Of a stretch of 63,171 nucleotides of DNA, positions 1 through 63,171 are shown in pieces. Positions within the stretch are counted from its first letter, which is position 1. Every line of letters starts with the position of its first letter. A model generated the notes under the pieces. That model was not told the origin of the DNA and did no database searches. It worked only from the letters and a program-made list of their open reading frames with translations. This DNA comes from Bacteroides faecis (GTDB lineage: Bacteria; Bacillota; Clostridia; Oscillospirales; Acutalibacteraceae): NCBI GenBank assembly GCA_963625295.1, contig CAVFTC010000001.1:1-63171 (forward strand), in the 5' to 3' direction. Made by a program: the position numbers and the translations under genes.

Positions 1-113
1 AGGTTGTACAAAAATTTTGTAGGCTTGCTGACGCAAGTCAAGGAATTTTTGTGCAGCATGACGGAAACAGATTCAAGCAAGGCGTGCGCCTTAATTGTGC
101 GGTATTGCCTTAA
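1..113. mobile_element. Partial copy of the ~168-bp MITE-like repeat, about 55 nt missing at the window start; same orientation as the 19247-19414 copy
   Basis: Aligns base-for-base with the distal part of 19247-19414 (AGGTTGTACAAAAATTTTG...GCAGCATGACGGAAAC...TTGTGCGGTATTGCCTTAA). Ends in the terminal TTGCCTTAA. Confidence 0.85.
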
Positions 114-2744: not shown

Positions 2745-4019
2745 ATGGAATATAAAGATTTATCAAAGGAAAAGCTATTGGAAATAAAGAAAGAGCTTGA
2801 AGCCGAGTATGAGGCATTTAAGGCAATGGGACTTAAGCTTGATATGTCACGAGGCAAGCCGAACAAGGCTCAGCTCGACCTGACAAACGATATGCTTGAT
2901 ACGGTCAACTCGTCAAGCGATATGTCCGCCTCTGACGGCATGGAGACAAGGAACTACGGCGGACTTACGGGTATTCCGGAATGCCGCAAGCTCATGGCGG
3001 AGATCGTTGATGTTGACGAAAAGAATGTTATTCTCGGCGGTGTTGCAAGCCTTACGCTTATGTACGACTATATTTCTCAGTGCATGATTTTCGGCTGCGG
3101 CGGAAACGAGCCTTGGATAAAGCAGGGAGAAATCAAATTTCTCTGCCCCTGCCCCGGCTATGACAGGCATTTCGGAATTCTTGAGCATTTCGGCATCAAG
3201 ATGATAAACATTAAAATGAACGATGACGGTCCGGACATGGACAGCATCGAGGAATACATCAAGGATGAAAAGGTTAAAGGACTTTTCTGCGTTCCCAAGT
3301 ATTCAAATCCCGACGGAATAACATTTTCCGATGAGGTCGTTCGTCGTTTCGCCGCTCTCAAGCCTGCGGCAAAGGATTTCAGAGTAATCTGGGACAACGC
3401 CTACATTGTTCATGACCTCAACGACACACCCGACAAGCTGCTCAACATCTTTGACGAAGCAAAAAAATGCGGCAGTGAGGATATGTTCATCGAGGTTATC
3501 TCAACCTCAAAAATAAGCTTTGCCGGCGGCGGAATTTCCGCTGTTATCGCTTCGGACGCAAATATTGCCGAGATCAAGAAGCGAATGAGCATTCAAATCA
3601 TTTCAAACGATAAAATAAATCAGCTCAGACACGCAAGATATTTCAAAAATCTTGACGGCATAAAGGCACATATGAAAAAGCAGGCGACGATACTAAAGCC
3701 GAAATTCGATACGGTTACGGACGGCTTTGAAAAAGCATTTGACGGCACTGGCATTGCAAGCTGGAAAAAGCCTAACGGCGGATATTTCATCAGCCTGTTT
3801 GTCATGAAGGGCTGCGCAAAGCGTGTCGGAGAGCTTTGCAAGGAAGCCGGACTTACTCTGACAACAGTCGGTGCAACCTATCCCTACGGCATTGACCCCG
3901 ACGACAGCAACATCAGAATCGCGCCGTCATATCCCGATGTTGACGAGCTTCAAAAGGCAGTCGAGCTGCTTTGCATATGCGTCAAGCTTGCCGCCGTAGA
4001 AAAAATAACGGAAGAGTGA
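2745..4019 (+). CDS. PLP-dependent aminotransferase (class I/II fold)
   Basis: About 424 aa; SRGKP...LD motif region and the STSK lysine context typical of fold-type I aminotransferases. GGAGG RBS 5 nt upstream of the ATG at 2745. Confidence 0.8.
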   Translation: MEYKDLSKEKLLEIKKELEAEYEAFKAMGLKLDMSRGKPNKAQLDLTNDMLDTVNSSSDMSASDGMETRNYGGLTGIPECRKLMAEIVDVDEKNVILGGVASLTLMYDYISQCMIFGCGGNEPWIKQGEIKFLCPCPGYDRHFGILEHFGIKMINIKMNDDGPDMDSIEEYIKDEKVKGLFCVPKYSNPDGITFSDEVVRRFAALKPAAKDFRVIWDNAYIVHDLNDTPDKLLNIFDEAKKCGSEDMFIEVISTSKISFAGGGISAVIASDANIAEIKKRMSIQIISNDKINQLRHARYFKNLDGIKAHMKKQATILKPKFDTVTDGFEKAFDGTGIASWKKPNGGYFISLFVMKGCAKRVGELCKEAGLTLTTVGATYPYGIDPDDSNIRIAPSYPDVDELQKAVELLCICVKLAAVEKITEE

Positions 4020-4023
4020 TCCT

Positions 4024-5724
4024 ATGAACAAGCCCTTGTATGAAGTCAGAGAGTTTCACAATTTCAGAGAGCTGCTCAATCAAAGCGAGGAGCTTTACGG
4101 AAACAGCCCTGCATTCAAGATAAAAAACCAAATAGGTCAGATCCTCGACATAAGCTACACACGCTTCAAGGCTGATGTTGAGGCTCTCGGCACGGCATTG
4201 CTTGACCTCGGTCTTGAGGGCGAAAAAATAGCCGTTGCCGGGGCGAACAGCTATAAATGGTGTACAAGCTATCTTGCGGTTGGCTGCGGCGTAGGCGTTG
4301 TTGTTCCGACCGACAAGGAGCTCCCGTTTGACGACATTCTCAGCATACTGACCGTATCCGAAGCAAAGGCTGTCATCTTCGACAAAAAATTTGGAGAAAA
4401 GCTTCTTGATCATCGTGAAAAGCTGCCGAAAAATCTCATACTCATCTCAATGGAACAGAAAAAAGATTGTGACGGGATACTTTCCTACGACCTCATTTTA
4501 AACAACGGCTACCACCTTATCGGCAAAGGCAATTCGGATTACCTCGACCGTGAGGTTGCAGGCAACAAAATGACCGTTCTGCTCTTTACCTCGGGCACAA
4601 CGGGAATGTCAAAGGCAGTTATGCTCAGCGCAGATAATATCTGCTCCGATGTCAGAGCTATAATGGGATTTGTCAAGATCAACGAGGGTGAACGGATTCT
4701 TTCGCTGCTCCCTATACACCACACTTATGAATGTACGGTCACCTTCCTGTGCTGTCTTTACGGCGGTGTAACTATCTGCTTCTGCGACGGGCTTAGATAT
4801 ATCACAAAAAATCTTGAGGAATATAAGCCGAATATCTTGATCGTCGTTCCTCTCGTTCTTGAAAAATTTTACAAGCGAATAATGAAAGCAATCGACAAGG
4901 AACGGGGCGGTTCGGCAAAGGTTGCGCTTGCGAGCGCAATTACAAAGGCGGTCGGCGTTACAAAAATGGATGTCTCCAATATTTTCTTCGGGAAGATAAA
5001 AAAAGCCTTCGGCGGCTCGATAAGGCTCATCATTTCCGGAGCGGCGGGAATTGATCCGGAAATCATAAAAAATATGAACCGCTTCGGCATTCAGACCTTT
5101 CAGGGCTACGGCCTGACGGAATGCTCCCCTATCGTCATCTGCAACAGCGACAAGGATAACAAATACGACTCGATCGGTAAGCCTATCCCCTCTGTCGAAG
5201 CAAAGATTGTCAATCCCGATGAAAACGGAATCGGCGAAATCTGCATAAAAGGACCAATGGTCATGCTCGGCTACTATAAAGACCCTGACGCAACAAGGGC
5301 AACCTTTGACAGGAACGGCTGGTTTCATACCGGCGACCTCGGCAGAACCGACAAGGACGGTCATTATTATATCTGCGGCCGCTGCAAGAGCGTTATTGTT
5401 ACAACGAACGGTAAAAATGTTTATCCGGAGGAGCTTGAAAGTATGCTTCTCAGGGAAAAAGCGATCAAAGAGTGCATAGTAACCGGCCGAGAGGACGAGC
5501 GAGGCAACACTATTGTTTATGCCAGAATCTTTCCCGACCTCAAGGCGATCGGCGCAATGTACGGCAACAGGAGCATTACCGACAAAGAAATCAGCAAATC
5601 TGTTTCCGAAGCCGTCAAAAGCGTTAATTCACAGGTTGTCAGCTATAAATCGATCAAAAGATACGAAATCATCGATAAGGAGTTTGAAAAAACGACCACA
5701 TCGAAAATCAAACGGAATCAGTAA
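4024..5724 (+). CDS. AMP-dependent (long-chain-type) fatty-acid--CoA ligase
   Basis: 566 aa; AMP-binding signature LLFTSGTTGMSKAVMLS, and GYGLTE and TGDLG motifs. Confidence 0.9.
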   Translation: MNKPLYEVREFHNFRELLNQSEELYGNSPAFKIKNQIGQILDISYTRFKADVEALGTALLDLGLEGEKIAVAGANSYKWCTSYLAVGCGVGVVVPTDKELPFDDILSILTVSEAKAVIFDKKFGEKLLDHREKLPKNLILISMEQKKDCDGILSYDLILNNGYHLIGKGNSDYLDREVAGNKMTVLLFTSGTTGMSKAVMLSADNICSDVRAIMGFVKINEGERILSLLPIHHTYECTVTFLCCLYGGVTICFCDGLRYITKNLEEYKPNILIVVPLVLEKFYKRIMKAIDKERGGSAKVALASAITKAVGVTKMDVSNIFFGKIKKAFGGSIRLIISGAAGIDPEIIKNMNRFGIQTFQGYGLTECSPIVICNSDKDNKYDSIGKPIPSVEAKIVNPDENGIGEICIKGPMVMLGYYKDPDATRATFDRNGWFHTGDLGRTDKDGHYYICGRCKSVIVTTNGKNVYPEELESMLLREKAIKECIVTGREDERGNTIVYARIFPDLKAIGAMYGNRSITDKEISKSVSEAVKSVNSQVVSYKSIKRYEIIDKEFEKTTTSKIKRNQ

Positions 5725-7922: not shown

Positions 7923-7931
7923 CAAATAAAT

Positions 7932-7977
7932 CAATACCGCACATTTTGAACAAATCAATTTGTGCGGTATTGCCTTA
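7932..7977. repeat. MITE-end-derived hairpin (CAATACCGCACA / TGTGCGGTATTG) between convergent genes
   Basis: 12-bp perfect inverted repeat carrying the family terminus ...GTGCGGTATTGCCTTA. Confidence 0.8.
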
Positions 7978-7981
7978 TAAC

Positions 7982-13426: not shown

Positions 13427-13433
13427 ATACAAA

Positions 13434-13470
13434 GTGACCGTCCTCGTTTGAGAGCGGTCACTGCCTTTAT
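13434..13470 (+). terminator. Probable terminator hairpin
   Basis: GTGACCG...CGGTCAC followed by a T-rich tract, directly abutting the MITE copy. Confidence 0.5.
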
Positions 13471-13638
13471 TTAAGGCAACACCGCACAAATCGAGGCGCA
13501 CGCCTTGCTTGAATATGTTTCCGTCATGCTGCACAAAAATTCCTTGACTTGCGTCAGCAAGCCTACAAAATTTTTGTACAACCTGACGAAAAATCTTACT
13601 GCGCAATTCGCACACCTCAATTGTGCGGTATTGCCTTA
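13471..13638. mobile_element. Full-length ~168-bp MITE-like element with terminal inverted repeats
   Basis: TTAAGGCAACACCGCACAAATCGAGGCGCAC... at one end. The reverse complement of the other end is TAAGGCAATACCGCACAATTGAGGTGTGCG. Homologous copies lie at 19247, 60523, 1 and 63131. Confidence 0.85.
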
Positions 13639-16915: not shown

Positions 16916-16986
16916 TATACATCATATTAAGCGACGGACGTGGAACAAATTTCACGTCCGTACATAATTATATAATAATAAAGAAT

Positions 16987-17013
16987 AAAGGCGATACCGC
17001 ACAAATTGCCTAA
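16987..17013. repeat. Solo, degenerate MITE terminus
   Basis: AAGGCGATACCGCACAAATTGCCTAA matches the family terminus. Confidence 0.6.
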
Positions 17014-17031
17014 ACACCGGAGGTAAAACAA

Positions 17032-17766
17032 ATGGATTCGCTTCTTCCCATTTTTGATCCGATACGGGGCGTAACAATGCCTGCGCTGCTGCTGAAAATA
17101 CTTTTATCCGTATTTTTCGGCGGCCTTATCGGTCTTGAACGAGGTCACAAGCACAGAGCCGCCGGCAGCCGTACATATATGATAGTCTGCATGGGCGCAG
17201 CGCTTACAATGATCCTGAGCCAGTATGAAAGCGAGCTTTTAAGCACAAACTGGAGAGCATTTTCGGAAGCCATCGGAATCAAAACCGATGTTTCAAGATT
17301 CGGTGCTCAGGTCATTAACGGCATCGGCTTTCTCGGCGCAGGAACAATTATTTTAACCGGCCGCCAAGAAATCAAGGGCTTGACGACAGCCGCCGGTCTT
17401 TGGGCTTCTGCATGTATGGGACTTGCGATTGGCTCCGGCTTTTACGAGTGCGCAATTCTCGGCTTCATTCTCATTCTTTTTACGACCGTTCTTCTCGACA
17501 GAGTCAGCTCATGGATAGTTTCAAACGCAAGAAACATGGATCTTTACATTGAATTTGAAAAGATGGAGGATCTCGGAACGATCATCGCTACATTTAAAGA
17601 GATGAATATCCAGATTTTCGATGTAGATATTCAGCGTGAAAAGCAATCAAACGGCGTAACGATCGGCGTTGTAATTTCCGCTCGCCTTCCAAAAAAAGAA
17701 ACCCATTCCAATGTCATGTCGGTAATTTCCAAATTTGATTTTGTTACCGTCGTTGACGAAATATAA
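17032..17766 (+). CDS. mgtC: MgtC/SapB family protein
   Basis: GLERG.KHRAAG.RTY motif, four to five TM segments and a C-terminal soluble domain. Confidence 0.85.
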   Translation: MDSLLPIFDPIRGVTMPALLLKILLSVFFGGLIGLERGHKHRAAGSRTYMIVCMGAALTMILSQYESELLSTNWRAFSEAIGIKTDVSRFGAQVINGIGFLGAGTIILTGRQEIKGLTTAAGLWASACMGLAIGSGFYECAILGFILILFTTVLLDRVSSWIVSNARNMDLYIEFEKMEDLGTIIATFKEMNIQIFDVDIQREKQSNGVTIGVVISARLPKKETHSNVMSVISKFDFVTVVDEI

Positions 17767-17783
17767 AGAAGGAGGTAGATACG

Positions 17784-18464
17784 ATGCTTCATTTCCTTGA
17801 TCCGCTCAGAGAAATAACAACGGTAGCCGTACTCGTTCGGCTGCTTTCCGCAATGCTTTGCGGCGGTGCGATCGGCATTGAACGAGAGCACAAGCGACGC
17901 ACGGCAGGCTTTAGAACACATATTCTTATCTGCCTCGGCGCAGCCATGACGACAATGGTCAGCCAGTTCCTTTTTCGTGAAATGCATATGTATACTGATA
18001 TCGGCCGTCTCGGCGCACAGGTAATTGCCGGAATCGGTTTCATCGGCGCAGGTACGATCATTGTTACAAAACGCCGTCAGGTCAAGGGTCTTACGACCGC
18101 CGCAGGTCTTTGGACATGCGCAATAATCGGCCTTGCCGTCGGCGCAGGCTACTATGAAGCCGCCGTTTTGGCAACGGTAATAATTCTTCTTGCGGAAATA
18201 TTTTTCTCACGCTTTGAATATTGGGTGCTCGACAACGCAAGAAACATCAATATTTATGTTGAATATTCAGGCACGGATAATCTTGATTCCGTTATCCGCA
18301 CGCTTAAAACATATCGGGTCATTATCCTTGACCTTGAAATTACAAAGTCAGGTCAAAACTCGTGTGCCATCTTCCAGCTTCAGCTCCCTAAAAAGCTCTC
18401 GCACGATAAGCTCATGACCGTCGTTTCCACCTCGGAGGGAATTATATCCGTCGAGGAGCTGTAA
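17784..18464 (+). CDS. mgtC: MgtC/SapB family protein (tandem paralog)
   Basis: GIEREHKRRTAGFRTH motif and the same architecture as the preceding gene. Confidence 0.85.
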   Translation: MLHFLDPLREITTVAVLVRLLSAMLCGGAIGIEREHKRRTAGFRTHILICLGAAMTTMVSQFLFREMHMYTDIGRLGAQVIAGIGFIGAGTIIVTKRRQVKGLTTAAGLWTCAIIGLAVGAGYYEAAVLATVIILLAEIFFSRFEYWVLDNARNINIYVEYSGTDNLDSVIRTLKTYRVIILDLEITKSGQNSCAIFQLQLPKKLSHDKLMTVVSTSEGIISVEEL

Positions 18465-18470
18465 AAAATA

Positions 18471-18511
18471 TAGGCAATACCGTTCTATCGAGATGTACGG
18501 TATTGCCTTAA
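18471..18511. repeat. Mini MITE derivative (both termini, GGCAATACCG / CGGTATTGCC hairpin)
   Basis: TAGGCAATACCG...CGGTATTGCCTTAA, located between convergent gene ends. Confidence 0.75.
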
Positions 18512-19246: not shown

Positions 19247-19414
19247 TTAAGGCAATACCGCATAATTGCGGTGAACGGATTGCGCAGTAAGATTTTTCAT
19301 CAGGTTGTACAAAAATTTTGAAGGCTTGCTGCCGCAAGTCAAAGAATTTTTGTGCAGCATGACGGAAACATATTCAAGTAAGGCGTGCACCTCAATTTTG
19401 CGGTGTTGCCTTAA
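19247..19414. mobile_element. Full-length ~168-bp MITE-like element, inverted relative to the 13471 copy
   Basis: Bounded by TTAAGGCA...TGCCTTAA. About nine in ten positions match the reverse complement of 13471-13638 by eye. Confidence 0.85.
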
Positions 19415-19452
19415 AAAAAGGCAGTGATTCCTAATCAGAAACCGCTGCCTTT
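19413..19452 (-). terminator. Probable terminator of the lipoprotein gene
   Basis: On the minus strand: GGCAGCGG...CACTGCC followed by TTTTTTT. Confidence 0.5.
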
Positions 19453-19500
19453 ATTATTCGTTCTGTGCCGAATCCGGCAACAATATTTTATGACGATGCC

Positions 19501-19886: not shown

Positions 19887-21197
19887 TTATCTCCATGACA
19901 TATAGACGGTCTTGCCGTTCTCGGCAACCGCATATTTTGCGCTCTTGGTCGATGACTCATATTCGGAAAGAGAAAGACCTGTAAACTTAATGCTTCTGGA
20001 TCTCTTCGGTGAGTTATGGTCAATCGTGGTTGTGTTTTCAAGTCCGCCGATAAATGCATTTGCCTGCTCTGCGGTCTGGAAATTGATAGTATATTCCGCC
20101 TTGAGCTTTGCGGTTTCATCGGGGTTGATAACATAGCTTCCTGCGCTGAGAGTTCCCGGAGTGAAGCCGGTGAGCCACCATGTTGTTGTCGGCGATCTCT
20201 GGAAAAGAAGATTGTACTTATTCTGATCGCTCGTATCCTGTCTGTAAACCTTAACGCTCATGTTGAGCTTCTCGGCATCTGTTACGCAGTCATAATATGT
20301 GCTGCTTGTTTTGCCGATGTCACGGTTATAAAGACCAAGCTCCGCACCAATAAGAACCAAGCCGTACTGGCCCTTCCAGTACTGCATCATCCATTCCTTG
20401 TTGTTGTAGTTAAACTTAACACGAATTGTATCGTATGAAATTGCACCTGCGCCGGAAACATTATCGTAAGTCTCCTCGAAGCCGAAATTTCTCTGCCATG
20501 CGTCCTCTGCCGTGTAGAATACCTGATCCGTCATGCTGTATTTGAAGCCGAAAAGACCCGTATCCTTGCCGTCGGGACTGACGACAGTCCAGCTGTCCGT
20601 TTCCTCGTCATACTTGAACTTAACGGATTCCGAGAAACGCTTGAGGCTGGCATTGAGATCCGTAACAAACTTTTTCGCATCAAACTTGGTTGTGTTCTTG
20701 TTGCTGCTGTTGCCGCTGTTACCGCTGTTGCCGCCGCTGTTTGAATTGCTTCCGCTGTTTGAGCCGCCGCTGTTAGATCCACCGCCGCTGTTACCGCCGC
20801 TGCTTGAACCTCCATTGCTTGAACCGCCGCTCGAACCGCCACTGATGGAACCGCCGCTGCTTGAGCCGCCGCTAACATAACCGGAATTCATATCAAGCGT
20901 TTCAATCGTGTTGCCGTTGTTGTCAACAACATCAATCTGATTTGCAGTCTGATCATATTTCCATGTCTGGCCGCAATCGTTGCAGACATATGTGCCGTCA
21001 CCGTTATCCTTGATATTGGTTGACTGACAAACAGGGCAGCAAAGCTGATTTCCCGTATCGTCAACAACCGGCGTTACCGACGAATTGTTTTTCTTGGTTT
21101 GCCCGATAAAATTACATCCGGGCAATATAGTAAGAATCGCAAGCGTAAGAACACAAACGATTGCGATCACCCTCAACCCTCTTTCTTTACCTTTCAT
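19887..21197 (-). CDS. Membrane-anchored zinc-ribbon / Gly-Ser-linker / DUF4474-like protein
   Basis: N-terminal TM, CPVC...CNDC ribbon, about 60 aa of G/S/N low complexity, and a C-terminal domain with the WQRNFGF motif that I associate with DUF4474. Confidence 0.6.
   Translation of the reverse strand: MKGKERGLRVIAIVCVLTLAILTILPGCNFIGQTKKNNSSVTPVVDDTGNQLCCPVCQSTNIKDNGDGTYVCNDCGQTWKYDQTANQIDVVDNNGNTIETLDMNSGYVSGGSSSGGSISGGSSGGSSNGGSSSGGNSGGGSNSGGSNSGSNSNSGGNSGNSGNSSNKNTTKFDAKKFVTDLNASLKRFSESVKFKYDEETDSWTVVSPDGKDTGLFGFKYSMTDQVFYTAEDAWQRNFGFEETYDNVSGAGAISYDTIRVKFNYNNKEWMMQYWKGQYGLVLIGAELGLYNRDIGKTSSTYYDCVTDAEKLNMSVKVYRQDTSDQNKYNLLFQRSPTTTWWLTGFTPGTLSAGSYVINPDETAKLKAEYTINFQTAEQANAFIGGLENTTTIDHNSPKRSRSIKFTGLSLSEYESSTKSAKYAVAENGKTVYMSWR
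20700..20880. repeat. Coding low-complexity nucleotide repeat (GCCGCC/GCTGTT-type) encoding the Gly/Ser/Asn linker
   Basis: Iterated CCGCCGCTG / TTGCCGCTG units. They create long spurious ORFs on both strands (20531-20880). Confidence 0.7.
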
Positions 21198-31495: not shown

Positions 31496-32959
31496 ATGAA
31501 CAAGAAAATGATAACCTATATTTTAGGTATTTTGCTTATAACCGAAGGAGCATTGCTCCTGCTGCCCATGCTTGTCGGCATTTACTACAAGGAGGATTTT
31601 CGTTCCTTCCTGTATTCGATAGCTGCGGCGGTGATCACGGGCTTCATTATGACCCGATTCAAGCCCAAGGATAAAACAATCGTTGCAGGCGACGGCTTTG
31701 CTATCGTTTCACTGGGATGGATTCTTATCAGTCTTTTCGGTGCTCTCCCCTTTTTCCTGAGCGGAGAAATTCCGAGCTATCTTGACGCCGTGTTTGAGGT
31801 CGTTTCCGGCTTCACGACAACAGGCTCAAGCATTCTGACCGATGTTGAAGCGCTGAGCAAGCAAATGATTTTCTGGCGAAGCTTCACCCACTGGGTCGGC
31901 GGCATGGGTGCGCTTGCCTTCATTATGGCGATTCTTCCTCTTGCCAAAGGCGGCGGAAACCTGCACCTAATGAAAGCGGAAAGCCCCGGACCGGATGTTG
32001 AAAAGCTTGTTCCGAAAGCAAAAAGCACAGCAAGAATTCTTTACGGAATTTATGTCATAATGACAATCGTGCTGATATTGCTGCTTCGCTGCGGCGGACT
32101 TTCGTTCTTTGAAAGCGCAACGCTGAGCTTCGGCACGGCAGGCACAGGCGGCTTCGCAATCGTCAATTCAAGCATCGCCGATTACAGCCTTTATACTCAA
32201 ATAATCATCGGCGTTTTCATGATGCTTTTCGGAATCAACTTCAACTTCTATTTTCTGCTATTCTGCGGAAAATTCAAATCTGCATTTAAAAATCTTGAGG
32301 TTCGCTCATATCTCGGCATCATGGGCACGGCAATACTTTTGATTGCATTCAATATCCGTCATATGTTCGGCTCGTTCCTTGAGGCGCTGCACCAGTCGGC
32401 GTTCCAGGTCAGCTCCGTAATGACGACTACGGGATATGCAACGACAGACTTCGACAAATGGCCGGAGTTCAGCAGAATGATAATGCTGATAGTTATGTGC
32501 GTCGGTGCTTGCGCCGGAAGCACAGGCGGCGGCTTCAAGGTTTCAAGGGTTGTTATACTTGCCAAATCAGCAAGGCGTGAGTTAAAAAAGCTTGCCCACC
32601 CGAGAAGCGTAAGCGTAATAACCATGGACGGCAAGCGTGTCAGCGACGAGGTTGTAACCGGAACAAACCTTTTCTTCTTTGTTTACATTGTCATTTTTGT
32701 TGCGTCCCTGCTTATCGTATCGCTGGATACTCAGGATATGGTCACGAATATTTCGGGCGTTATCGCAACGCTCAACAACATAGGTCCCGGACTCGGAAAG
32801 GTCGGTCCGCTCGGAAACTTCTCCGTCTACAGCTGGTATTCAAAGGTCGTATTTATCCTCGATATGCTGCTCGGCAGACTTGAGATTTTCCCGTTCCTAA
32901 TGCTTTTCACTCCAAAGCTTAAAAGGAGCAAAAAAATTAAGGCAATACCGCACAATTGA
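31496..32959 (+). CDS. trkH: Trk potassium uptake membrane subunit TrkH
   Basis: TrkH-type pore repeats (TTTG, GTGGF, TTTGYAT, GSTGGG). The last codons IKAIPHN* are encoded by the mini-MITE at 32937-32972. Confidence 0.9.
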   Translation: MNKKMITYILGILLITEGALLLLPMLVGIYYKEDFRSFLYSIAAAVITGFIMTRFKPKDKTIVAGDGFAIVSLGWILISLFGALPFFLSGEIPSYLDAVFEVVSGFTTTGSSILTDVEALSKQMIFWRSFTHWVGGMGALAFIMAILPLAKGGGNLHLMKAESPGPDVEKLVPKAKSTARILYGIYVIMTIVLILLLRCGGLSFFESATLSFGTAGTGGFAIVNSSIADYSLYTQIIIGVFMMLFGINFNFYFLLFCGKFKSAFKNLEVRSYLGIMGTAILLIAFNIRHMFGSFLEALHQSAFQVSSVMTTTGYATTDFDKWPEFSRMIMLIVMCVGACAGSTGGGFKVSRVVILAKSARRELKKLAHPRSVSVITMDGKRVSDEVVTGTNLFFFVYIVIFVASLLIVSLDTQDMVTNISGVIATLNNIGPGLGKVGPLGNFSVYSWYSKVVFILDMLLGRLEIFPFLMLFTPKLKRSKKIKAIPHN

Positions 32960-32972
32960 GGTGTTGCCTTAA
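32937..32972. repeat. 36-bp mini MITE derivative (both termini retained)
   Basis: TTAAGGCAATACCGCACAATTGAGGTGTTGCCTTAA. It supplies the trkH stop codon. Confidence 0.8.
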
Positions 32973-35849: not shown

Positions 35850-35881
35850 TTCTGTCGCTCCTTTCAAAGCATTCATTTTGT

Positions 35882-35917
35882 CAATGCCGCACATCTCAAT
35901 TGTGCGGATTTGCCTTA
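35882..35917. repeat. Solo MITE terminus (contains the internal CCGCACA/TGTGCGG hairpin)
   Basis: The reverse complement reads TAAGGCAAATCCGCACAATTGAGATGTGCGGCATTG. Its terminal TAA is the stop codon of the C-N hydrolase gene. Confidence 0.75.
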
Positions 35918-36721
35918 TAATTCATAGAGATCGGGTTTTCTGTCGTTGAAAACATTGATCGAGCTTCTTATATCCTTTATTATTCCGAAATCGCAGTCAG
36001 CTGTGATGACCTCCTGCGCCTCGCCTGCCGCAGCGAGCACCTCGCCCCACGGGTCGATTATCTGCGAATGACCGCCGAAAACTGCGTCCGGTGTTTTTCC
36101 GCAGGAGTTGCAGCAGACAACAAACATCTGATTTTCAATCGCTCTTGCTCTTGTGAGTGTAACGATGTGTTCCTTTCTCGCAAGAGGCCACTGCGACACC
36201 ATAAACAGCATGTCAATGCCCCTTAGGGCAAGGCTTCTGACAAGCTCGCAGAAGCGGATATCGTAGCAGATTACGACGCCGCACTTATGTCCGTCAAGCT
36301 CGAAGGTCACAAGCTTTTCGCCGAAGCTAAAATATTTGTGCTCGTCCATCGGGGTGAAAAGGTGCGTCTTGTCATATTCGGCAACGACATCGCCCTTACG
36401 GTTGAAAACAAACGCCGTGTTGTAAATCCCGCCGTTCTTTTCGTTGGCGATACTGCCGGCAACGATGTTTACATTAAGCTCCCTTGCCAACGCCGAAAAG
36501 GTCTTTTTCAGCCTCTCGCCGTCTTTGTCACAATAGCTCGAAAGATTTTCCTTGGGATAATATCCCGTCGTCCATGTTTCGGGAAGAACGATAACATCGG
36601 ATTTTTCTTTCGCTGCCGTCTCCCTTATCAGTCTGACAGCCTCGTTGTAGTTATATTCAACATCGCCGAGCTTCATATCAAGCTGAATGCAGGAAGCCTT
36701 CATTGTATTATTCATAATCAT
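35915..36721 (-). CDS. Carbon-nitrogen hydrolase (nitrilase/omega-amidase superfamily)
   Basis: Catalytic E-K-C contexts: VLPE, the Lys in YDKTHLF and the Cys in GVVICYDIRF. Alternative starts are 36739, 36715 or 36703. Confidence 0.8.
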   Translation of the reverse strand: MIMNNTMKASCIQLDMKLGDVEYNYNEAVRLIRETAAKEKSDVIVLPETWTTGYYPKENLSSYCDKDGERLKKTFSALARELNVNIVAGSIANEKNGGIYNTAFVFNRKGDVVAEYDKTHLFTPMDEHKYFSFGEKLVTFELDGHKCGVVICYDIRFCELVRSLALRGIDMLFMVSQWPLARKEHIVTLTRARAIENQMFVVCCNSCGKTPDAVFGGHSQIIDPWGEVLAAAGEAQEVITADCDFGIIKDIRSSINVFNDRKPDLYEL

Positions 36722-40000: not shown

Positions 40001-40020
40001 ATCTTTAATATCTAATCGGT

Positions 40021-40330
40021 GTGCCAAACCTTAGGATAAATTGTTCAGCGTGCGTCGAGTTCAAGGCGACAGGCTGACGCAACTATGTGTATTGCTAAGT
40101 CTGTCAACGCAGAAATCGGCGTACCAAACCTTAGGATAAATTGTTCAAGGTGCGTCGAGTTCAAGGCAACAGGCTAACGCAATACTATGTGTATTGCTAA
40201 GTCTGTCAACGCAGAAATCGGCGTGCCAAACCTTAGGATAAATTGTTCAGGGTGCGTCGAGTTCAAGGCGACAGGCTGACGCAATACTATGTGTATTGCT
40301 AAGTCTGTCAACGCAGAAATCGGCGTGCCA
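40021..40330. repeat. Three head-to-tail ~101-bp direct repeats plus a 6-nt partial fourth unit
   Basis: Units at 40021-40120, 40121-40222 and 40223-40324. Unit 1 vs unit 3 differ by 1 substitution and a 2-nt indel; unit 2 vs unit 3 differ by 4 substitutions. Each unit holds a ~17-bp imperfect hairpin. Confidence 0.95.
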
Positions 40331-40338
40331 TGGACAAT

Positions 40339-42609
40339 TTACAGCTGATTACGGATGATTTTGCCGCTTATAGTCTTTGGAAGCTCGTCCTTGAACACAA
40401 CGATTCTCGGGTACTTGTAAGGAGCGGTGTGCTTCTTAACATAGTTCTGAATTTCTTTTTTAAGCTCCTCGGTCGGCTCTGTGCCCTTGGTAAGGACAAT
40501 GGAAGCCTTGACGACCTGTCCTCTTACCTCGTCGGGAGCAGCGGAAACGCCGCACTCAAGAACATAAGGAAGCTCCATGATAACATTTTCGATCTCGAAC
40601 GGTCCGATACGGTAGCCGGACGATTTGATAACATCGTCGATACGGCCGACATACCAGAAATATCCGTCCTCATCACGCCATGCGATATCGCCCGTGTGAT
40701 AAACGCCGTCGTGCCAAACCTCGTCTGTACGATCCTGATTTCTGTAGTAGCCGAGGAATATACCGCACGGTACTTTCTCGGAAGTGTTGACGCAGATTTC
40801 ACCGGTTTCACCGATATCCGCTTCCGTTCCGTCGGGACGAAGAATCTTGATGTCGTAAAGCGGCGTCGGCTTGCCCATTGAGCCGGGCTTCGGAGTCATT
40901 CCGGTGAGCGTTGCTATTCCAAGAGTCATCTCCGTTTGACCGAAGCCCTCCATAAGCTCAAGTCCGGTAGCATTATAGAACTGGCGGAATACCTCCGGGT
41001 TAAGTGCCTCACCGGCTGTTGTTGCGTGACGGATAGAGGAAAGATCGTACTTTGCGAGATCCTCCTTTATCATCATTCTGTACATCGTCGGAGGTGCGCA
41101 GAATGTTGTGATGTTATATTGCTTGAACATCGGAAGAATATCCGACGCATCGAAGCGGTCGAAGTTATATACAAATACTGCGCCCTCGCAGAGCCACTGT
41201 CCGTAGAGCTTGCCCCAAAGAGCCTTGCCCCAGCCGGTGTCGGAGATTGTAAGGTGAAGTCCGTCCTTGCTTACGCAGTGCCAATATTTAGCGGTGATAT
41301 AGTGTCCGAGCGGATATTTGTAGGAATGGGTTGCGATTTTCGGATAGCCCGTTGTGCCGGAGGTGAAGAACATAAGCATCGGATCGTTTCCGCACGGTGC
41401 GTCCTCTTCCCTTCTGTATCTTCTGGAGAACAGGCTGTATTCGCTGTCGAAGCTGTGCCAGCCCTCACGCTCGCCGCCGACAATGATTTTGTTGACGAGA
41501 GTATGCGTCTTTGCGTCGGCGATGTCAACCTGATGAGCGGTGTCGCCGTCGGCTGTGCAAAGAATTGTCGTTACTCCTGCCGCCTCAAATCTGTACTCAA
41601 AGTCATGGTCAACAAGAAGATTCGTTGCCGGAATTGCGATTGCGCCGATCTTATGAAGCGCAAGGATTGCAAACCAGAACTGATAATGACGCTTGAGAAC
41701 AAGCATTACCCTGTCGCCCTTCTTTATGCCGAGCGACTTGAAGTAGTTGGCCGCCTGTGCCGAGTGCTCCTTGACATCCTTAAATGTGAAGATGCGTTCC
41801 GTCTTATCGCGGTCAACATGAACGAGTGCACGCTTGTCAGGGGATTTTTTTGCAATTTTATCAACGATATCAAAAGCGAAGTTGAATTCATCCTCATGAT
41901 TAAAATCAATGGAAACAAGATTTCCGTTTTCGTCCTCTGTTGCGTCAATAAACTTCTCGCAAACATAGCTGCCCTTTGCCTTTACGCCCTTGACAGCTCT
42001 TTCGTGAACGATATTCGTTACCGTATCATCACTTGCCATGACCATCGCAAGGAAGAGACAATCCCTGCCGTCGATGGCAACCATTCCGTGAGGCGTTGAG
42101 GAGTTATAATAAATGCTGTCGCCCTCGTTAAGAATCTCCTCATGATTTCCGACTCTTACTCTCAGTGAACCGCTGATAACGATATCGAACTCCTGACCAC
42201 CGTGAGTTACGGTGCTTATCGGTTTATTTTCAAGCTCCGCGTCATACTCGTATCTAACCCAGTACGGCTCGGAAAGCTTTTTTCTGAAATTCGGTGCAAG
42301 GTTTTTGATTTCGATTCCGTTCTCGCTGGCGGTGATCTGACCCTTGCCCAGTCTTGTAACGGTATAGGATGAAAGCACGGCGCTGTGACCTTCAAGAAGA
42401 TCCGTAATGCCAATGTCAAAAGCAAGTGCACACTTGTGAATAAAAGTGAAAGGAAGGTCAACCGTTCCGCTCTCATAGAGCCTGTAGGTTTCAACAGAGA
42501 CTTCAGACTTCTCCGCCATTTCCTCAACGGTAAAGCCGCATATGTCTCTCATTTCCTGGATACGCTCAGCAACCTCATAAAGCTTGTTTGATTCGTTTTG
42601 ATTTGACAT
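40339..42609 (-). CDS. XRE-HTH + cupin domain fused to an AMP-forming medium-chain acyl-CoA synthetase
   Basis: N-terminal ~190 aa: HTH (ICGFTVEEMAEKSEVSVETYRLYESG) and cupin (GQEFDIVISGSL...YYNSSTPHGM). Remainder: ACSM/MacS-like ligase (MFFTSGTTGYPK, YGQTE, YHTGD, SGKIIR). Confidence 0.85.
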   Translation of the reverse strand: MSNQNESNKLYEVAERIQEMRDICGFTVEEMAEKSEVSVETYRLYESGTVDLPFTFIHKCALAFDIGITDLLEGHSAVLSSYTVTRLGKGQITASENGIEIKNLAPNFRKKLSEPYWVRYEYDAELENKPISTVTHGGQEFDIVISGSLRVRVGNHEEILNEGDSIYYNSSTPHGMVAIDGRDCLFLAMVMASDDTVTNIVHERAVKGVKAKGSYVCEKFIDATEDENGNLVSIDFNHEDEFNFAFDIVDKIAKKSPDKRALVHVDRDKTERIFTFKDVKEHSAQAANYFKSLGIKKGDRVMLVLKRHYQFWFAILALHKIGAIAIPATNLLVDHDFEYRFEAAGVTTILCTADGDTAHQVDIADAKTHTLVNKIIVGGEREGWHSFDSEYSLFSRRYRREEDAPCGNDPMLMFFTSGTTGYPKIATHSYKYPLGHYITAKYWHCVSKDGLHLTISDTGWGKALWGKLYGQWLCEGAVFVYNFDRFDASDILPMFKQYNITTFCAPPTMYRMMIKEDLAKYDLSSIRHATTAGEALNPEVFRQFYNATGLELMEGFGQTEMTLGIATLTGMTPKPGSMGKPTPLYDIKILRPDGTEADIGETGEICVNTSEKVPCGIFLGYYRNQDRTDEVWHDGVYHTGDIAWRDEDGYFWYVGRIDDVIKSSGYRIGPFEIENVIMELPYVLECGVSAAPDEVRGQVVKASIVLTKGTEPTEELKKEIQNYVKKHTAPYKYPRIVVFKDELPKTISGKIIRNQL

Positions 42610-42651: not shown

Positions 42652-42947
42652 AACAAAAAATCCGTCCCAAAGTCATTAGAACTTTGAGACGGATTTGAAT
42701 ATCCGCGGTACCACTCAAATTGCGATCTGCTATTGCTTCTCGCCTCTCTGCAGGATCTGACAATCCCTCAACACTGACGTAGTTGTCACGGGAGAAACTA
42801 CTGTAGTTTTCATCTCTCCGGCTCGGAAGTGATGGGCTTTACATTTACCTCGCTATCGGCTCGCACCAAACGCCGACTCTCTGAAAGGACATAAACGCAA
42901 CCGTCTTCGTCACAGCCTTTGTTTCAACAGGTTATTTGTACCTGTTG
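42652..42947 (-). promoter_or_regulatory. T-box riboswitch leader, putative Ile (AUC) specifier
   Basis: Minus strand shows a K-turn (TGACGAAG / CTTCCGAGCC), AGAGAG bulge, distal loop GGTGCGA, T-box AATTTGAGTGGTACCGCGG (42703-42721) and the terminator TCCGTCTCAAAG...CTTTGGGACGGA + TTTTTT. Confidence 0.85.
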
Positions 42948-46936: not shown

Positions 46937-46959
46937 AACGATTCTCCTTTTGAAGTTAT

Positions 46960-48195: not shown

Positions 48196-48296
48196 TTAAG
48201 GCAACACCGCACAAATCGAGGCGCACGCCTTGTTCGGTAACCGCTGATTAAACCATAGCACAATTCGCACACCTCAATTGTGCGGTATTGCCTTAA
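48196..48296. mobile_element. Internally deleted (~101-bp) MITE derivative retaining both termini
   Basis: TTAAGGCAACACCGCACAAATCGAGGCGCACGCCTTG...ATTCGCACACCTCAATTGTGCGGTATTGCCTTAA. It encodes the araB C-terminal KAIPHN*. Confidence 0.85.
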
Positions 48297-56725: not shown

Positions 56726-56757
56726 AAAGCAATATCGCACAATTGAGATGCTGCACA
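56726..56757. repeat. Degenerate solo MITE terminus
   Basis: AAAGCAATATCGCACAATTGAGATGCTGCAC resembles the family terminus. It creates the spurious ATG at 56748. Confidence 0.5.
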
Positions 56758-56780
56758 ATATTACTTTGGAGGTTATATAC

Positions 56781-59804: not shown

Positions 59805-60545
59805 ATGGTAAAAAAAGAAAACAAAGCTTTGAAATACGCATCACTGATCTTCGGTATAGTCACGATTGCATATCTTTGGCTGTACGACAGGCTTCTTGAG
59901 CCTAATCCGCTTTACGGCGACCGTGCGTCAACGGCGAGCAATGTTGGCAGAGATCATTGGATTGCTTTTATATTCTGGGGTATGCTCATAGCAGCCTCGA
60001 TCGTACTCAACCTCAACTATTCGCTCGAAAAATTCAATGTTGACCGCAGATTTCCGAAAGCACTGTCGGTAGTAGGGCTGTTCGCCATGTTCGGAGTCGT
60101 GATGTGCAAAAACGAAAAGCTGAAAAGATTCACGCTTACGCTCAATTACGAAACCTACACCGCTCCGTCCTACACAAGCGACTATGCGGATCAAACGCTC
60201 GATACGCAGACCAATCTTATCAACTTCTTCTTATCCAAGAAAAGCCTGCATTCTGCGTTTGCGGTTTTATTCGGCCTTTGCATTGCAACGGCGGTCATAT
60301 ATTTCCTTGTCTATAAAGCAAGGACAAACAGGAAATTTTTCAATCTCACGATCGCTTTTTTCATTTGGATATGCATTGCTGCGATTTATCTCAAGGTTAG
60401 GCTCGGCGGAACGGCGGAAATTGTCGTTCTCACCGTTACGATGATCCCCATGCTGATAGTCAATCACACAAGGATCATGGAGTTGCCCGAGGAACGGGTC
60501 GAATGCATTGAAAAAGAAGAGGCCAAGGCAACGCCGCACAATTAA
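59805..60545 (+). CDS. Polytopic membrane protein, unknown function
   Basis: About six hydrophobic segments. The terminal AKATPHN* is encoded by the MITE at 60523-60690. Confidence 0.6.
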   Translation: MVKKENKALKYASLIFGIVTIAYLWLYDRLLEPNPLYGDRASTASNVGRDHWIAFIFWGMLIAASIVLNLNYSLEKFNVDRRFPKALSVVGLFAMFGVVMCKNEKLKRFTLTLNYETYTAPSYTSDYADQTLDTQTNLINFFLSKKSLHSAFAVLFGLCIATAVIYFLVYKARTNRKFFNLTIAFFIWICIAAIYLKVRLGGTAEIVVLTVTMIPMLIVNHTRIMELPEERVECIEKEEAKATPHN

Positions 60546-60690
60546 GGCGCACGCTTTGCTTGAAGCTATTTCCGTCATGCTGCACAAAAATTCCTTGACT
60601 TGCGACAGCAAGCGTGCAAAATTTTTTTACAACCTGGCAAAAAATCTTACTGCGCAATCCGCACACCTAAATTGTGCGGTATCGCCTTAA
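60523..60690. mobile_element. Full-length ~168-bp MITE-like element, same orientation as the 13471 copy
   Basis: CCAAGGCAACGCCGCACAATTAAGGCGCAC...CACACCTAAATTGTGCGGTATCGCCTTAA, with the central core conserved. Confidence 0.85.
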
Positions 60691-63090: not shown

Positions 63091-63132
63091 AAATCCCCGG
63101 AAGCACAAATCAATGTGTTTTCGGGGATTTTT
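63091..63132 (+). terminator. Rho-independent terminator
   Basis: AAATCCCCG...CGGGGATTT followed by T residues, abutting the MITE start. Confidence 0.7.
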
Positions 63133-63171
63133 AAGGCAATACCGCACAATTGAGGTGTGCGGATTGCGTAG
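63131..63171. mobile_element. First 41 nt of a MITE copy, truncated by the window end
   Basis: TTAAGGCAATACCGCACAATTGAGGTGTGCGGATTGCGTAG matches the start of 19247-19414. Confidence 0.8.

What the first reader, a model, noticed from the sequence alone, without database searches (positions are those of the whole stretch)
13471..13638. Dense family of ~168-bp TIR-bounded MITE-like elements (reference copy)
This copy defines the element. Its termini are TTAAGGCAACACCGCACAAATCGAGGCGCAC... and ...GTGCGAATTGCGCAG-type sequence ending CAATTGTGCGGTATTGCCTTA, giving an imperfect inverted repeat of about 28 bp. Its central core is conserved: GTTTCCGTCATGCTGCACAAAAATTCCTTGACTTGCG.

Related sequences occur at 12 loci in 63 kb:
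- full-length: 13471, 19247, 60523
- edge-truncated: 1, 63131
- internally deleted: 48196
- mini or solo ends: 7932, 16987, 18471, 32937, 35882, 56726

No transposase is present in the window. The TTAAGG...CCTTAA ends are compatible with TA or TTAA target duplication, as in IS630/mariner-derived bacterial MITEs such as RUP or Correia-like elements. Because TTAA is present in nearly every copy, I cannot separate the target-site duplication from the TIR.

Nearly all copies sit at gene 3' ends or between convergent genes. The core also carries TTGACT-16 nt-CAAAAT, a possible outward promoter.
Basis: partly seen in the sequence, partly recalled or inferred. Interest (0 to 1): 0.62.

Follow-up and report, generated by a model that had tools for sequence, protein, structure and literature searches.

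The report
Hairpin MITE family of gut Clostridia
A 168-180-base mobile DNA repeat litters the genomes of Ruminococcus-like gut and rumen bacteria in hundreds of copies, inserts at TTAA, and is built as one long hairpin that is conserved on one strand only. It is an undescribed member of a known kind of element, a miniature transposon. The enzyme that moves it and the purpose of the hairpin are both unknown.

Summary
The 19-nt terminus has 15 matches in the window against 0.01 expected, and all 12 listed loci hold full, internally deleted, mini or remnant copies. Both window ends fall inside copies.

It behaves as a non-autonomous mobile element:
- It has terminal inverted repeats (GGCAAYACCGCACAA...).
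- It is flanked by TTAA. When the flank deviates on both sides, the two sides are direct repeats, which favours a 4-bp target duplication over TA.
- Eight sister species carry a single TTAA at the empty 48196 site.
- A ~97%-identical strain lacks two of the window's copies.
- An isolate genome and a metagenome each hold about 200-500 copy-equivalents.
- None of 50 window ORFs is a transposase.

The whole element is one ~80-bp hairpin with strong covariation. The family spans Oscillospirales and phage contigs.

The fold's strand does not track gene direction or GC skew. The proposed promoter and the IS630/TA origin are not supported.

The family matches nothing in Rfam 15 or the papers searched. 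Its closest analogue is bcr1 of Bacillus cereus. The parent transposase was not found.

The parts
13471..13638 (-). GGCAAC...ATTGCC is flanked by TTAA on the left and TTAG on the right.
   Evidence: As RNA the - strand folds at -96.8 kcal/mol and the + strand at -58.2. Boundaries come from unrelated flanks in metagenome contigs. The copy is absent from a ~97%-identical strain and from syntenic loci L122 and L123.
19247..19414 (+). Full-length 168-nt copy with the F strand on +. It lies between two genes on the - strand, directly after a terminator-like hairpin of the upstream gene.
   Evidence: It is present in metagenome strain X1, where contigs break inside it.
60523..60690 (-). Full-length 168-nt copy with the F strand on -. 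The left flank is CCAA and the right flank TTAA. It lies between two genes on the + strand.
1..113 (+). Copy cut by the start of the window, with the F strand on +. The stop codon of the DHDPS-family gene (91-1032, - strand) lies just inside its terminus.
   Evidence: (92% identical to 19302-19414).
63131..63171 (+). Copy cut by the end of the window; only the first 41 nt of the F-strand 5' end are present.
48196..48296 (-). Copy with both termini intact but its interior replaced by about 25 unrelated nt. It is flanked by TTAA on both sides.
   Evidence: The orthologous site is empty, with a single TTAA, in L193-L197, L199, L201 and L202. In L198 it holds a differently decayed copy.
32937..32972 (.). 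Mini element: TTAA-GGCAATACCGCACAATTGAGGTGTTGCC-TTAA, an 11-bp hairpin. It lies between convergent genes.
   Evidence: This exact mini form is itself multicopy in metagenome X1 (depth 232 against about 12), with many different flanks.
18469..18511 (.). Mini element: TATA-GGCAATACCGT...ACGGTATTGCC-TTAA. It lies between convergent genes.
16986..17014 (.). Mini element: TAAA-GGCGATACCGCACAAATTGCC-TAAA. The non-canonical flank is a direct repeat. It sits in the 5' untranslated region of the first mgtC-family gene.
   Evidence: A contig of the X1 strain skips 16980-17011 between TAAA repeats.
7930..7978 (.). Mini element with a degenerate left end (ATCAATACCGCACA...TGTGCGGTATTGCC-TTAT). It lies between convergent genes.
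35876..35918 (.). Degenerate mini element (GTCAATGCCGCACA...TGTGCGGATTTGCC-TTAT).
   Evidence: It is absent at the orthologous site of six sister species.
56729..56767 (.). Remnant of one end (GCAATATCGCACAATTGAG...) in the 5' region of the GH95 gene. This is the weakest of the 12 loci.
   Evidence: In the X1 strain these 39 nt are replaced by 8 other nt.

Best explanation
**What it is.** This is an uncatalogued family of non-autonomous mobile elements (MITEs). It is found in Oscillospirales: Acutalibacteraceae, Ruminococcaceae and Oscillospiraceae of gut and rumen.

**What is shown.**
- The element proper is GGCAAYACCGCACAA...TTGTGCGGTRTTGCC. It comes as 160 or 172 nt, that is 168 or 180 nt with its flanks.
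- It inserts into TTAA and ends up flanked by TTAA on both sides.
- It has multiplied to hundreds of copies per genome.
- It decays in place by internal deletion into 30-100-nt 'minis'. At least one mini form has itself been copied.
- Its whole body is one ~80-bp imperfect hairpin with a small apical stem-loop. The 180-nt subfamily adds a 3'-arm side hairpin.
- Pairing is kept by compensatory changes. It tolerates G·U (or G·T) on one strand only.

**What is inferred.**
- Some single-stranded form of that strand, ssDNA or RNA, is under selection. The most plausible setting is the multiplication of the element itself, because the favoured strand ignores the direction of host genes and of replication.
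- A transposase encoded elsewhere in the genome binds the 15-19-bp termini and makes a 4-bp staggered cut at TTAA (DDE type). This step has not been demonstrated.
- The window's 168-nt subfamily is a recent burst in this species. Its copies share a near-identical core, and sister species have few copies.
For: **Repeat and termini.**. There are 56 full-length copies in other genomes, all with the same termini.

**Target site.**
- TTAA is present at 92-94% at each of the 4 flank positions, and nothing beyond them is conserved.
- Flanks that deviate on both sides are direct repeats in 7 copies, against one doubtful inverted case.
- The empty 48196 site carries a single TTAA in 8 sister species. 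L198 holds a differently decayed copy at that site.

**Presence and absence.**
- Copies 13471 and 16986 are missing in a ~97%-identical strain.
- Copy 13471 is missing in syntenic L122 and L123.

**Copy number.**
- Metagenome X1: depth 3000-5600 over the element against 9-13 over its flanks.
- An isolate-sized run that holds the Ruminococcus flavefaciens FD-1 locus: 35,000-86,000 against about 150-170.
- The 32937 mini form is itself multicopy.

**Non-autonomous.** None of 50 window ORFs is a transposase.

**Hairpin.**
- z = -13.8 for the folding energy of the better strand.
- That same strand folds better in 56 of 56 copies, by 22 kcal/mol on average.
- On 37 copies, 56 pairs are 95.2% paired, against 79.7% in shuffles and 35-47% when the partners are slid.
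- 37 of those pairs show changes on both sides: 304 such cells against 103, reached by 0 of 500 shuffles.
- G·U 207 against A·C 30, where base composition alone predicts 1.3:1. In single-sequence folds the counts are G·U 420 against A·C 28.

**Spread.**
- 33 IMG/VR contigs.
- 5 faecal phage records.
Against: - No autonomous element with these termini was found. There was no pair of termini 0.3-3 kb apart around a transposase. No recurrent transposase family lies near copies in about 3 Mb of loci.
- A TTAA on each side and a single TTAA at empty sites are also what insertion 3' of a TTAA by a single-strand (HUH/Y1) transposase would leave, if the element carries its own 3' TTAA. Only the seven direct-repeat variants argue for a true duplication.
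- The two strain-level 'empty' alleles are not clean pre-insertion sites. Their joints lie between short direct repeats (TGCCTT, TAAA), 2-7 nt off the element ends. They look like slippage deletions of a hairpin rather than excisions or ancestral sites.
- A double-strand cut-and-paste mechanism does not by itself explain selection on one strand.
- Nor does it explain the orientation-dependent flank. The 5 nt before the 5' TTAA of the well-folding strand are T-rich (p = 8e-7), while the other flank is neutral.
- No strand-resolved RNA data could be obtained.
Confidence: 0.7

Rival explanations
1. The element is moved as single-stranded DNA by an HUH/Y1 (IS200/IS605- or RAYT-type) transposase, like REPINs or palindrome-associated elements. 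The well-folding strand is the substrate hairpin. The element inserts 3' of a TTAA and carries its own 3' TTAA, so nothing is duplicated.
For: - The hairpin is strand-specific, tolerates G·T, and is kept by covariation.
- The conserved part is the foot of the stem, while the interior only needs to pair.
- Empty sites with a single TTAA fit this model equally well.
- One-sided flank variants are common: 31 of the 146 candidate end pairs found by a permissive pattern, some of which are chance matches.
- The flank composition depends on orientation.
- An IS200-like Y1 transposase gene (Pfam Y1_Tnp, E = 1.9e-41) lies about 230 nt from a copy in R. flavefaciens FD-1. Next to it is a hairpin, GCCATACCG...CGGTATGGC, that resembles the terminus core.
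Against: - Seven copies carry identical non-canonical 4-mers on both sides, which this model predicts only by coincidence.
- IS200/IS605 elements have no terminal inverted repeats. This is established knowledge of the family, not tested here.
- The strand shows no bias relative to GC skew, 40 against 45, whereas such elements are biased to the lagging-strand template.
- The 3 Mb of loci hold only one Y1 gene and one fragment, neither consistently adjacent to copies.
- No GTAG or CGTC end tag is present.
Confidence: 0.15
2. The hairpin is kept because of what it does as RNA for the host: terminator, 3'-end stabiliser or RNase III site in the transcripts of neighbouring genes. On this reading the family is a domesticated regulatory module rather than mainly a selfish element.
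For: - Covariation with G·U pairs is the classical signature of RNA structure.
- Copies are intergenic, often directly after stop codons.
- Metatranscriptome contigs contain the element embedded in longer transcripts.
- Precedents exist: bcr1 is transcribed and keeps its RNA structure by compensatory changes (PMC3184786). From my own knowledge, not checked here, Correia and ERIC elements affect mRNA processing.
Against: - The well-folding strand is not co-oriented with the genes that read into it: 29 sense against 34 antisense. In tandem contexts it is 11 against 19, and at tight 3' ends 13 against 24.
- It is not terminator-like. Only 15 of 75 copies have a T-run after it.
- Copies are lost or decay freely between strains and species.
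- Minis lacking the interior still multiply.
Confidence: 0.1
3. This is the first reader's version: a MITE derived from IS630/Tc1-mariner that duplicates TA, with termini beginning AGGCAA, like RUP or Correia elements.
For: The central TA is always present, and the empty-site sequence at 48196 fits a TA duplication as well as a TTAA one.
Against: - The outer T and A of TTAA are conserved as strongly as the central TA.
- Direct-repeat flank variants such as ATAG/ATAG, TAAA/TAAA, TTAG/TTAG and TTAT/TTAT would need paired coincidences under a 2-bp model.
- No IS630-like gene was seen.
Confidence: 0.08
4. The element spreads through an RNA intermediate, as a bacterial SINE-like retro-element. The hairpin RNA of the favoured strand would be cut out at its base, for example by RNase III, then reverse-transcribed and integrated at TTAA.
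For: Only indirect evidence: selection on one strand irrespective of genomic orientation, and target duplications, which are compatible with target-primed insertion.
Against: - No reverse transcriptase recurs near copies.
- A fixed 4-bp TTAA duplication and exact inverted termini are typical of DNA transposons.
- No such system is known in bacteria.
Confidence: 0.03

Closest known systems
bcr1 repeat of the Bacillus cereus group (Group A bcr repeats)
   Same: Both are ~155-180-bp non-coding dispersed repeats of a Firmicute. Both are flanked by short direct repeats and distributed differently between close strains. Both have a secondary structure kept by compensatory base changes. Neither has an identified transposase (review PMC3184786).
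   Different: [quoted passage not shown] Here the flank is 4-bp TTAA and the fold is one rod-like hairpin spanning the whole element. The hosts are anaerobic gut Clostridia and the family spans several families of bacteria.
Correia/NEMIS (Neisseria), ERIC (enterobacteria) and RUP (Streptococcus pneumoniae) MITE-like repeats
   Same: All are 100-170-bp, TIR-bounded, intergenic and highly repeated. All can fold into long hairpins. The review PMC3184786 lists them; the details given here are from my own knowledge.
   Different: Those elements are reported with TA duplications (own knowledge, not checked here). Here the evidence favours 4 bp. The sequences are unrelated. I know of no report of strand-specific covariation along the whole length for those families.
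REP / REPIN elements with RAYT (Y1) transposases
   Same: Both are hairpin-forming repeats in hundreds of copies. In both, the stem is conserved and maintained by compensatory change, pointing to a single-stranded substrate.
   Different: REPs are 20-40-nt palindromes with a GTAG or CGTC end tag (PMC3733652, title and abstract) and leave no target duplication (own knowledge). Here there is no such tag, a TTAA lies on both sides with direct-repeat variants, and no flanked RAYT gene was found.
IS families with 4-bp target duplications (IS5 group with YTAR targets; IS1380, the bacterial relative of TTAA-specific piggyBac)
   Same: Both have a 4-bp duplication at a TTAA-like (YTAR-like) target and short terminal inverted repeats.
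   Different: This is a lead from memory only. No member with GGCAAYACCGCACAA ends was found or could be looked up, because ISfinder is not available here.
Integron attC sites
   Same: Both are imperfect palindromes of 60-140 nt in which structure rather than sequence is conserved, and one folded DNA strand is the substrate. This is a functional analogy for selection on a single strand (own knowledge).
   Different: There are no cassette arrays, no common orientation and no integrase. Copies are scattered singly in both orientations.

Membership tests
MITE (miniature inverted-repeat transposable element) | Small (under about 500 bp) with no coding capacity | tested here: met
   Copies are 168-181 nt and minis 30-110 nt. 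Only spurious reading frames cross them.
MITE (miniature inverted-repeat transposable element) | Terminal inverted repeats | tested here: met
   GGCAAYACCGCACAA / TTGTGCGGTRTTGCC is present in all 56 full-length copies.
MITE (miniature inverted-repeat transposable element) | Target-site duplication, with empty sites carrying one copy of the target | tested here: met
   TTAA is on both sides at 92-94% per position. Seven non-canonical flanks are direct repeats. Eight sister species carry a single TTAA at the empty 48196 site. Caveat: an element-borne 3' TTAA is not formally excluded.
MITE (miniature inverted-repeat transposable element) | Many dispersed copies, with presence or absence differing between strains or species | tested here: met
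   There are 12 loci in 63 kb and about 200-500 copy-equivalents in an isolate and in a metagenome. Polymorphic sites are shown.
MITE (miniature inverted-repeat transposable element) | A cognate autonomous IS with the same termini supplies the transposase | tested here: inconclusive
   None was found in the window or in about 3 Mb of loci. Whole carrier genomes could not be scanned.
IS630/Tc1-mariner-derived MITE (RUP- or Correia-like) | Duplication of the TA dinucleotide only | tested here: not met
   The outer T and A are as conserved as the central TA. Four-nt direct-repeat variants include ATAG/ATAG, TAAA/TAAA, TTAG/TTAG and TTAT/TTAT.
IS630/Tc1-mariner-derived MITE (RUP- or Correia-like) | Termini matching an IS630-family element of the same host | not testable with these tools
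   ISfinder is not available. No such element occurs in the sequence held.
REP/REPIN with RAYT | Short palindromic unit with a GTAG or CGTC tag at one end | tested here: not met
   The ends read TTAAGGCAA. CGTC occurs only inside the arms.
REP/REPIN with RAYT | A Y1 (RAYT) gene flanked by the repeats | tested here: inconclusive
   One IS200-like Y1_Tnp gene lies next to a copy in R. flavefaciens FD-1. It is present in about 7 copies there, which fits an ordinary IS200. None was found elsewhere.
REP/REPIN with RAYT | No target duplication | tested here: not met
   Non-canonical flanks are direct repeats.
Any Rfam 15 RNA family | Match to a curated covariance model | tested here: not met
   Nothing reached the gathering threshold. 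At E up to 10 only eukaryotic miRNA-precursor and snoRNA models matched, far below their thresholds; the best was 28 bits against 117. These reflect the hairpin shape only.
Intrinsic (Rho-independent) terminator | G+C-rich hairpin directly followed by a U-run on the transcribed strand | tested here: not met
   At least 5 T in the 8 nt after the element occurs in 15 of 75 copies on the well-folding strand and 5 of 75 on the other. There is no orientation bias towards upstream genes.

The most novel reading that the evidence does not exclude
The family would be a mobile gene for a structured single-stranded nucleic acid. One strand of the ~170-nt rod-like hairpin is the active form, with conserved internal loops (GCAGG/UCAAGG, UUUUCGUCA/UGACGGAAA carrying a fixed U·G) and a GNNA-capped side hairpin.

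It could act in either of two ways. It could be the substrate of a not-yet-described TTAA-specific, strand-selective transposition pathway. Or it could be an RNA acting in trans, for example as a processed dsRNA, a guide or a decoy. Either would explain three things that a plain cut-and-paste MITE does not:
- selection acts on one strand regardless of genomic orientation;
- the flank is asymmetric with respect to that strand;
- the termini are identical across several bacterial families.
Probability: 0.2. Interest if true: 0.8.

Novelty: new member of a known kind. Interest (0 to 1): 0.5.

Why it matters
**Practical.**
- The repeat occurs about once per 5 kb in this window and in hundreds of copies per genome. 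It breaks short-read assemblies of abundant gut and rumen Clostridia: the window itself starts and ends in a copy, and many hits lie at contig ends.
- A model of the family would help assembly, binning and strain typing, because insertions differ between ~97%-identical strains.
- It also sits in phage contigs, so it may help link phages to hosts.

**Biological.**
- It is a clean, data-rich case of a bacterial MITE whose whole body is under structural selection on one strand only.
- It has a TTAA target and no known transposase.
- It is present in cultivable organisms where it can be tested: R. flavefaciens FD-1, R. callidus, Acutalibacter and Agathobaculum.
- Finding its transposase could reveal a TTAA-specific bacterial enzyme.

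Tried and rejected
- **Rfam.** Nothing matched at the gathering threshold or at E up to 10 apart from spurious miRNA-precursor hits.
- **Hammerhead-like reading of CUGACGA...GUC.** Rejected by inspection. There is no GAAA or stem III, and the motifs simply pair with each other in the long hairpin.
- **Parent IS.**
  - All pairs of termini more than 260 bp apart enclose ordinary genes or are chance pairs.
  - All-against-all clustering of ORFs from the loci gave ABC transporters, response regulators, MATE pumps and phage serine recombinases, but no transposase. This held both for ORFs of 150 aa or more and for those of 90-260 aa.
- **Exact-protein look-up of the neighbouring gene.** Not on record.
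- **Metagenome relatives of the purple acid phosphatase gene.** The closest is only 81% identical, so they were useful only for one diverged empty site.
- **Empty sites among fetched loci by joined-flank BLAST.** Only the window against L122 and L123 was found.
- **Orientation of the well-folding strand.** It shows no significant association with flanking genes or with GC skew.
- **Strand-resolved expression.**
  - Metatranscriptomes are held only as undirected contigs.
  - The 2026 raw RNA runs offered contain no reads.
  - No RNA run was found for R. flavefaciens FD-1.
- **Literature.** No paper holds the terminus sequence. Searches combining MITE with Ruminococcus or Ruminococcaceae gave nothing specific.
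- **L198 mini at 21487 as a clean empty-site pair.** Its flanks are too diverged to use.
Full report
**1. The observation**

Its 19-nt terminus, allowing up to 3 mismatches, occurs 15 times in the window. The expectation is 0.01. The 37-nt core occurs 4 times with 0-1 mismatch.

All twelve listed loci contain related sequence:
- three full copies, at 13471, 19247 (inverted) and 60523;
- two copies cut by the window ends, 1-113 and 63131-63171;
- one copy with a replaced interior, 48196-48296;
- six minis or remnants.

The window begins and ends inside copies. Many matches in other assemblies also lie at contig ends. This repeat therefore breaks assemblies.

Fifty window ORFs were scanned against Pfam. 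All are ordinary chromosomal genes, with no transposase or integrase among them.

**2. Where else the family occurs**

- *The exact 25-nt core.* It was found at only three places among 185,579 species-representative genomes. All three are full-length copies, one of them in Ruminococcus sp. CAG:488.
Nearly all are Oscillospirales from human, mouse, horse, rabbit and ruminant guts. Cultured strains among them include R. flavefaciens FD-1, R. callidus, Acutalibacter, Neglectibacter and Agathobaculum butyriciproducens.
- *Phage sequence.* The terminus is in 33 IMG/VR contigs, and the element is in 5 faecal phage records.
- *Full-length copies.* A profile search of these loci gave 56 full-length copies in two length classes, 168 and 180 nt, all with the same termini.
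- *Copy number.* In a metagenome with a ~97%-identical strain, depth over the element is 3000-5600 against 9-13 on its flanks. In an isolate-sized run that holds the FD-1 locus at 100% identity, it is 35,000-86,000 against about 150-170. Both correspond to roughly 200-500 copy-equivalents.

The window's organism is a relative of Ruminococcus sp. CAG:488 and CAG:563. A marker protein is 95-97% identical to theirs. The labels of related assemblies place it among the Acutalibacteraceae.

**3. Evidence for mobility and for the target site**

The four bases outside GGCAA...TTGCC are T, T, A, A at 92-94% each. Beyond them there is only A+T richness.

TTAA is its own reverse complement, so the canonical flank cannot distinguish a duplication from an extension of the inverted repeat. 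The deviant copies can. When both flanks deviate they are identical in direct orientation:
- CTAA/CTAA in L001;
- TAAA/TAAA in L056 and at window 16986;
- ATAG/ATAG in L094;
- TTAG/TTAG in L172 and L176;
- TTAT/TTAT in L172.

Only one case is inverted, and its left end is degenerate.

The cleanest empty site is that of the 48196 copy. Eight sister species read ...TTTTTAAGCTCC... there, with a single TTAA. The window has TTAA-element-TTAA. L198 carries a differently decayed copy at the same place. That is one old insertion followed by independent decay in two lineages.

Other evidence for presence and absence:
- The 35876 mini is also absent from six sister species.
- Copy 13471 is absent from two syntenic metagenome loci at about 76% identity.
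- In a ~97%-identical strain a contig joins 13461 to 13632, and another joins 16979 to 17012.

The last two joints lie between short direct repeats (TGCCTT, TAAA) slightly off the element ends. I read them as slippage deletions of a hairpin, not as ancestral sites.

The 36-nt mini at 32937 is itself multicopy with many different flanks. Termini plus a short stem are therefore enough for copying.

**4.

The element matches its own reverse complement along its whole length. I call the better-folding strand F.

F folds better in 56 of 56 copies from many genomes, by 22 kcal/mol on average. In the F folds there are 3249 Watson-Crick pairs, 420 G·U pairs and only 28 A·C single mismatches.

An alignment of 37 copies of the 180-nt class gives a consensus of 56 pairs in six helices. 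The side hairpin is capped by GNNA-type loops. On this alignment:
- 95.2% of cells are paired, against 79.7% in column shuffles and 35-47% when partners are slid by 1-3 columns;
- 37 pairs show changes on both sides;
- there are 304 such cells against 103 in shuffles, a value reached by 0 of 500 shuffles.

G·U outnumbers A·C by 207 to 30, and 34 pairs have more G·U against 5 with more A·C. With the four G·U-dominant pairs removed, the count is still 117 to 29. Base composition alone predicts 1.3:1.

A palindrome maintained on double-stranded DNA, or drifting neutrally, would show G·U and A·C equally. Some single-stranded form of F is therefore under selection.

Conserved unpaired or wobble features argue for recognition by a protein. 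They include CCTTGA, TTTCCGTCA opposite TGACGAAAA with a fixed mismatch, and CTGACGAAAAATCT.

**5. What the F strand does not follow**

- *Direction of neighbouring genes.* Genes reading into the element are 29 sense against 34 antisense. In tandem contexts the split is 11 against 19, and at tight 3' ends 13 against 24. None of these is significant.
- *Replication strand.* Judged by GC skew, the split is 40 against 45.
- *Terminator shape.* The element is not terminator-like.

These results argue against a host-level RNA role as the main constraint. They point to the element's own propagation.

One asymmetry remains unexplained. The five bases before the 5' TTAA of F are T-rich (T minus A = +1.4, p = 8e-7). 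The other flank is neutral (paired p = 2e-4).

**6. Mechanism**

- *Shown:* a non-autonomous, TTAA-inserting, recently and repeatedly amplified element whose body is a hairpin selected on one strand.
- *Inferred, most likely:* mobilisation in trans by a transposase that binds the 15-19-bp termini and makes a 4-bp staggered cut.
- *Main rival:* a Y1/HUH single-strand transposase. It would explain the strand-specific hairpin and equally predicts one TTAA at empty sites. It does not explain the direct-repeat flank variants, the inverted termini or the absence of replication-strand bias.

One lead was recorded but not established. In R. flavefaciens FD-1 an IS200-like Y1 gene lies about 230 nt from a copy, and a neighbouring hairpin resembles the terminus core. 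That IS is present in about 7 copies, and no such gene recurs near other copies.

No parent IS was found anywhere in the sequence held.

**7. Comparison with known families**

Nothing in Rfam 15 matches. No paper in the searchable library contains the terminus sequence or describes such a repeat in these bacteria.

The closest described analogue is bcr1 of the B. cereus group. It is about 155 bp, has 5-bp direct repeats, is strain-variable and transcribed, and keeps its structure by compensatory changes (PMC3184786). It is unrelated in sequence and has a different fold and duplication.

Correia, ERIC and RUP elements are analogues in size and hairpin potential. REP/REPIN membership fails on the end tag and on the duplication.

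**8. Verdict**

This is a real, very abundant and apparently undescribed MITE family: a new member of a known kind. It has two features worth following up. One is whole-length, strand-specific structural selection that ignores genomic orientation. The other is a TTAA target with no known transposase.

Noticed in passing
window 1-113 and 63131-63171: The window starts and ends inside copies of the repeat, so it is probably a whole contig whose assembly stopped at this repeat. Many hits in other assemblies are likewise at contig ends.
   Followed up: partly
window 42682-42922 and 46990-47227 (- strand): Two T-box leaders (Rfam 103 and 95 bits). They do not precede tRNA synthetases. One precedes an HTH-cupin-AMP-binding protein (40339-42609). 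The other precedes a LeuA-like gene (45521-46951) followed by a xylose-isomerase-like TIM barrel fused to an AMP-binding enzyme (43020-45518).
   Followed up: partly
window 40014-40330: A tandem repeat of a 102-nt unit, 3.1 copies at 94% identity, lies directly 3' of the AMP-binding gene that ends at 40339. Its nature is unknown.
   Followed up: no
window 20704-20885: A 12-18-nt periodic repeat (CCGCTGTT-like on the + strand) lies inside the DUF4474 / zinc-ribbon protein gene 19887-21197 (- strand). It probably encodes a low-complexity linker.
   Followed up: no
L113:203-679 (- strand), hairpin at L113:815-840: In R. flavefaciens FD-1 an IS200-like Y1 transposase gene (Pfam Y1_Tnp, E = 1.9e-41) lies about 230 nt from a full-length copy. 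That IS is present in about 7 copies and ends near 811. Just outside it is a perfect 12-bp hairpin, AACGCCATACCG...CGGTATGGCGTT, whose core resembles the element terminus.
   Followed up: partly
L179:1667-1690, L081:5485-5507, L178:2-30: Half elements, consisting of one terminus followed by unrelated DNA right after ...CACAA(AG), lie within 20-640 nt of large serine recombinase genes in phage or prophage contigs. Integrative elements may use copies as attachment sites.
   Followed up: partly
75 full-length copies in loci L001-L192 and the window: The flank is asymmetric with respect to the well-folding strand. The 5 nt upstream of its 5' TTAA are T-rich (p = 8e-7) while the downstream flank is neutral. 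This is unexplained. It hints at strand-specific insertion or at orientation-dependent selection.
   Followed up: partly
L001, L046, L017, L078, L112, L194, L198: Several 'cleanbin' assemblies carry contigs that clearly belong to CAG-488-like or Ruminococcus-like Clostridia, by synteny and 96-97% protein identity. Yet they are labelled Eggerthellaceae, Selenomonadaceae, Bacteroidaceae or Coriobacteriaceae. These are likely mis-binned or mislabelled.
   Followed up: no
window 17032-18464: Two adjacent MgtC-family genes (tandem paralogues) have a mini element in the 5' untranslated region of the first and another directly after the second.
   Followed up: no
window 13433-13470 and 19417-19458: Both full copies 13471 and 19247 abut terminator-like hairpins that end in the same ...CACTGCCTTT(T/A)T sequence. 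The 19417-19458 hairpin (AAAGGCAGCGG...CACTGCCTTT) looks like a decayed mini element.
   Followed up: no
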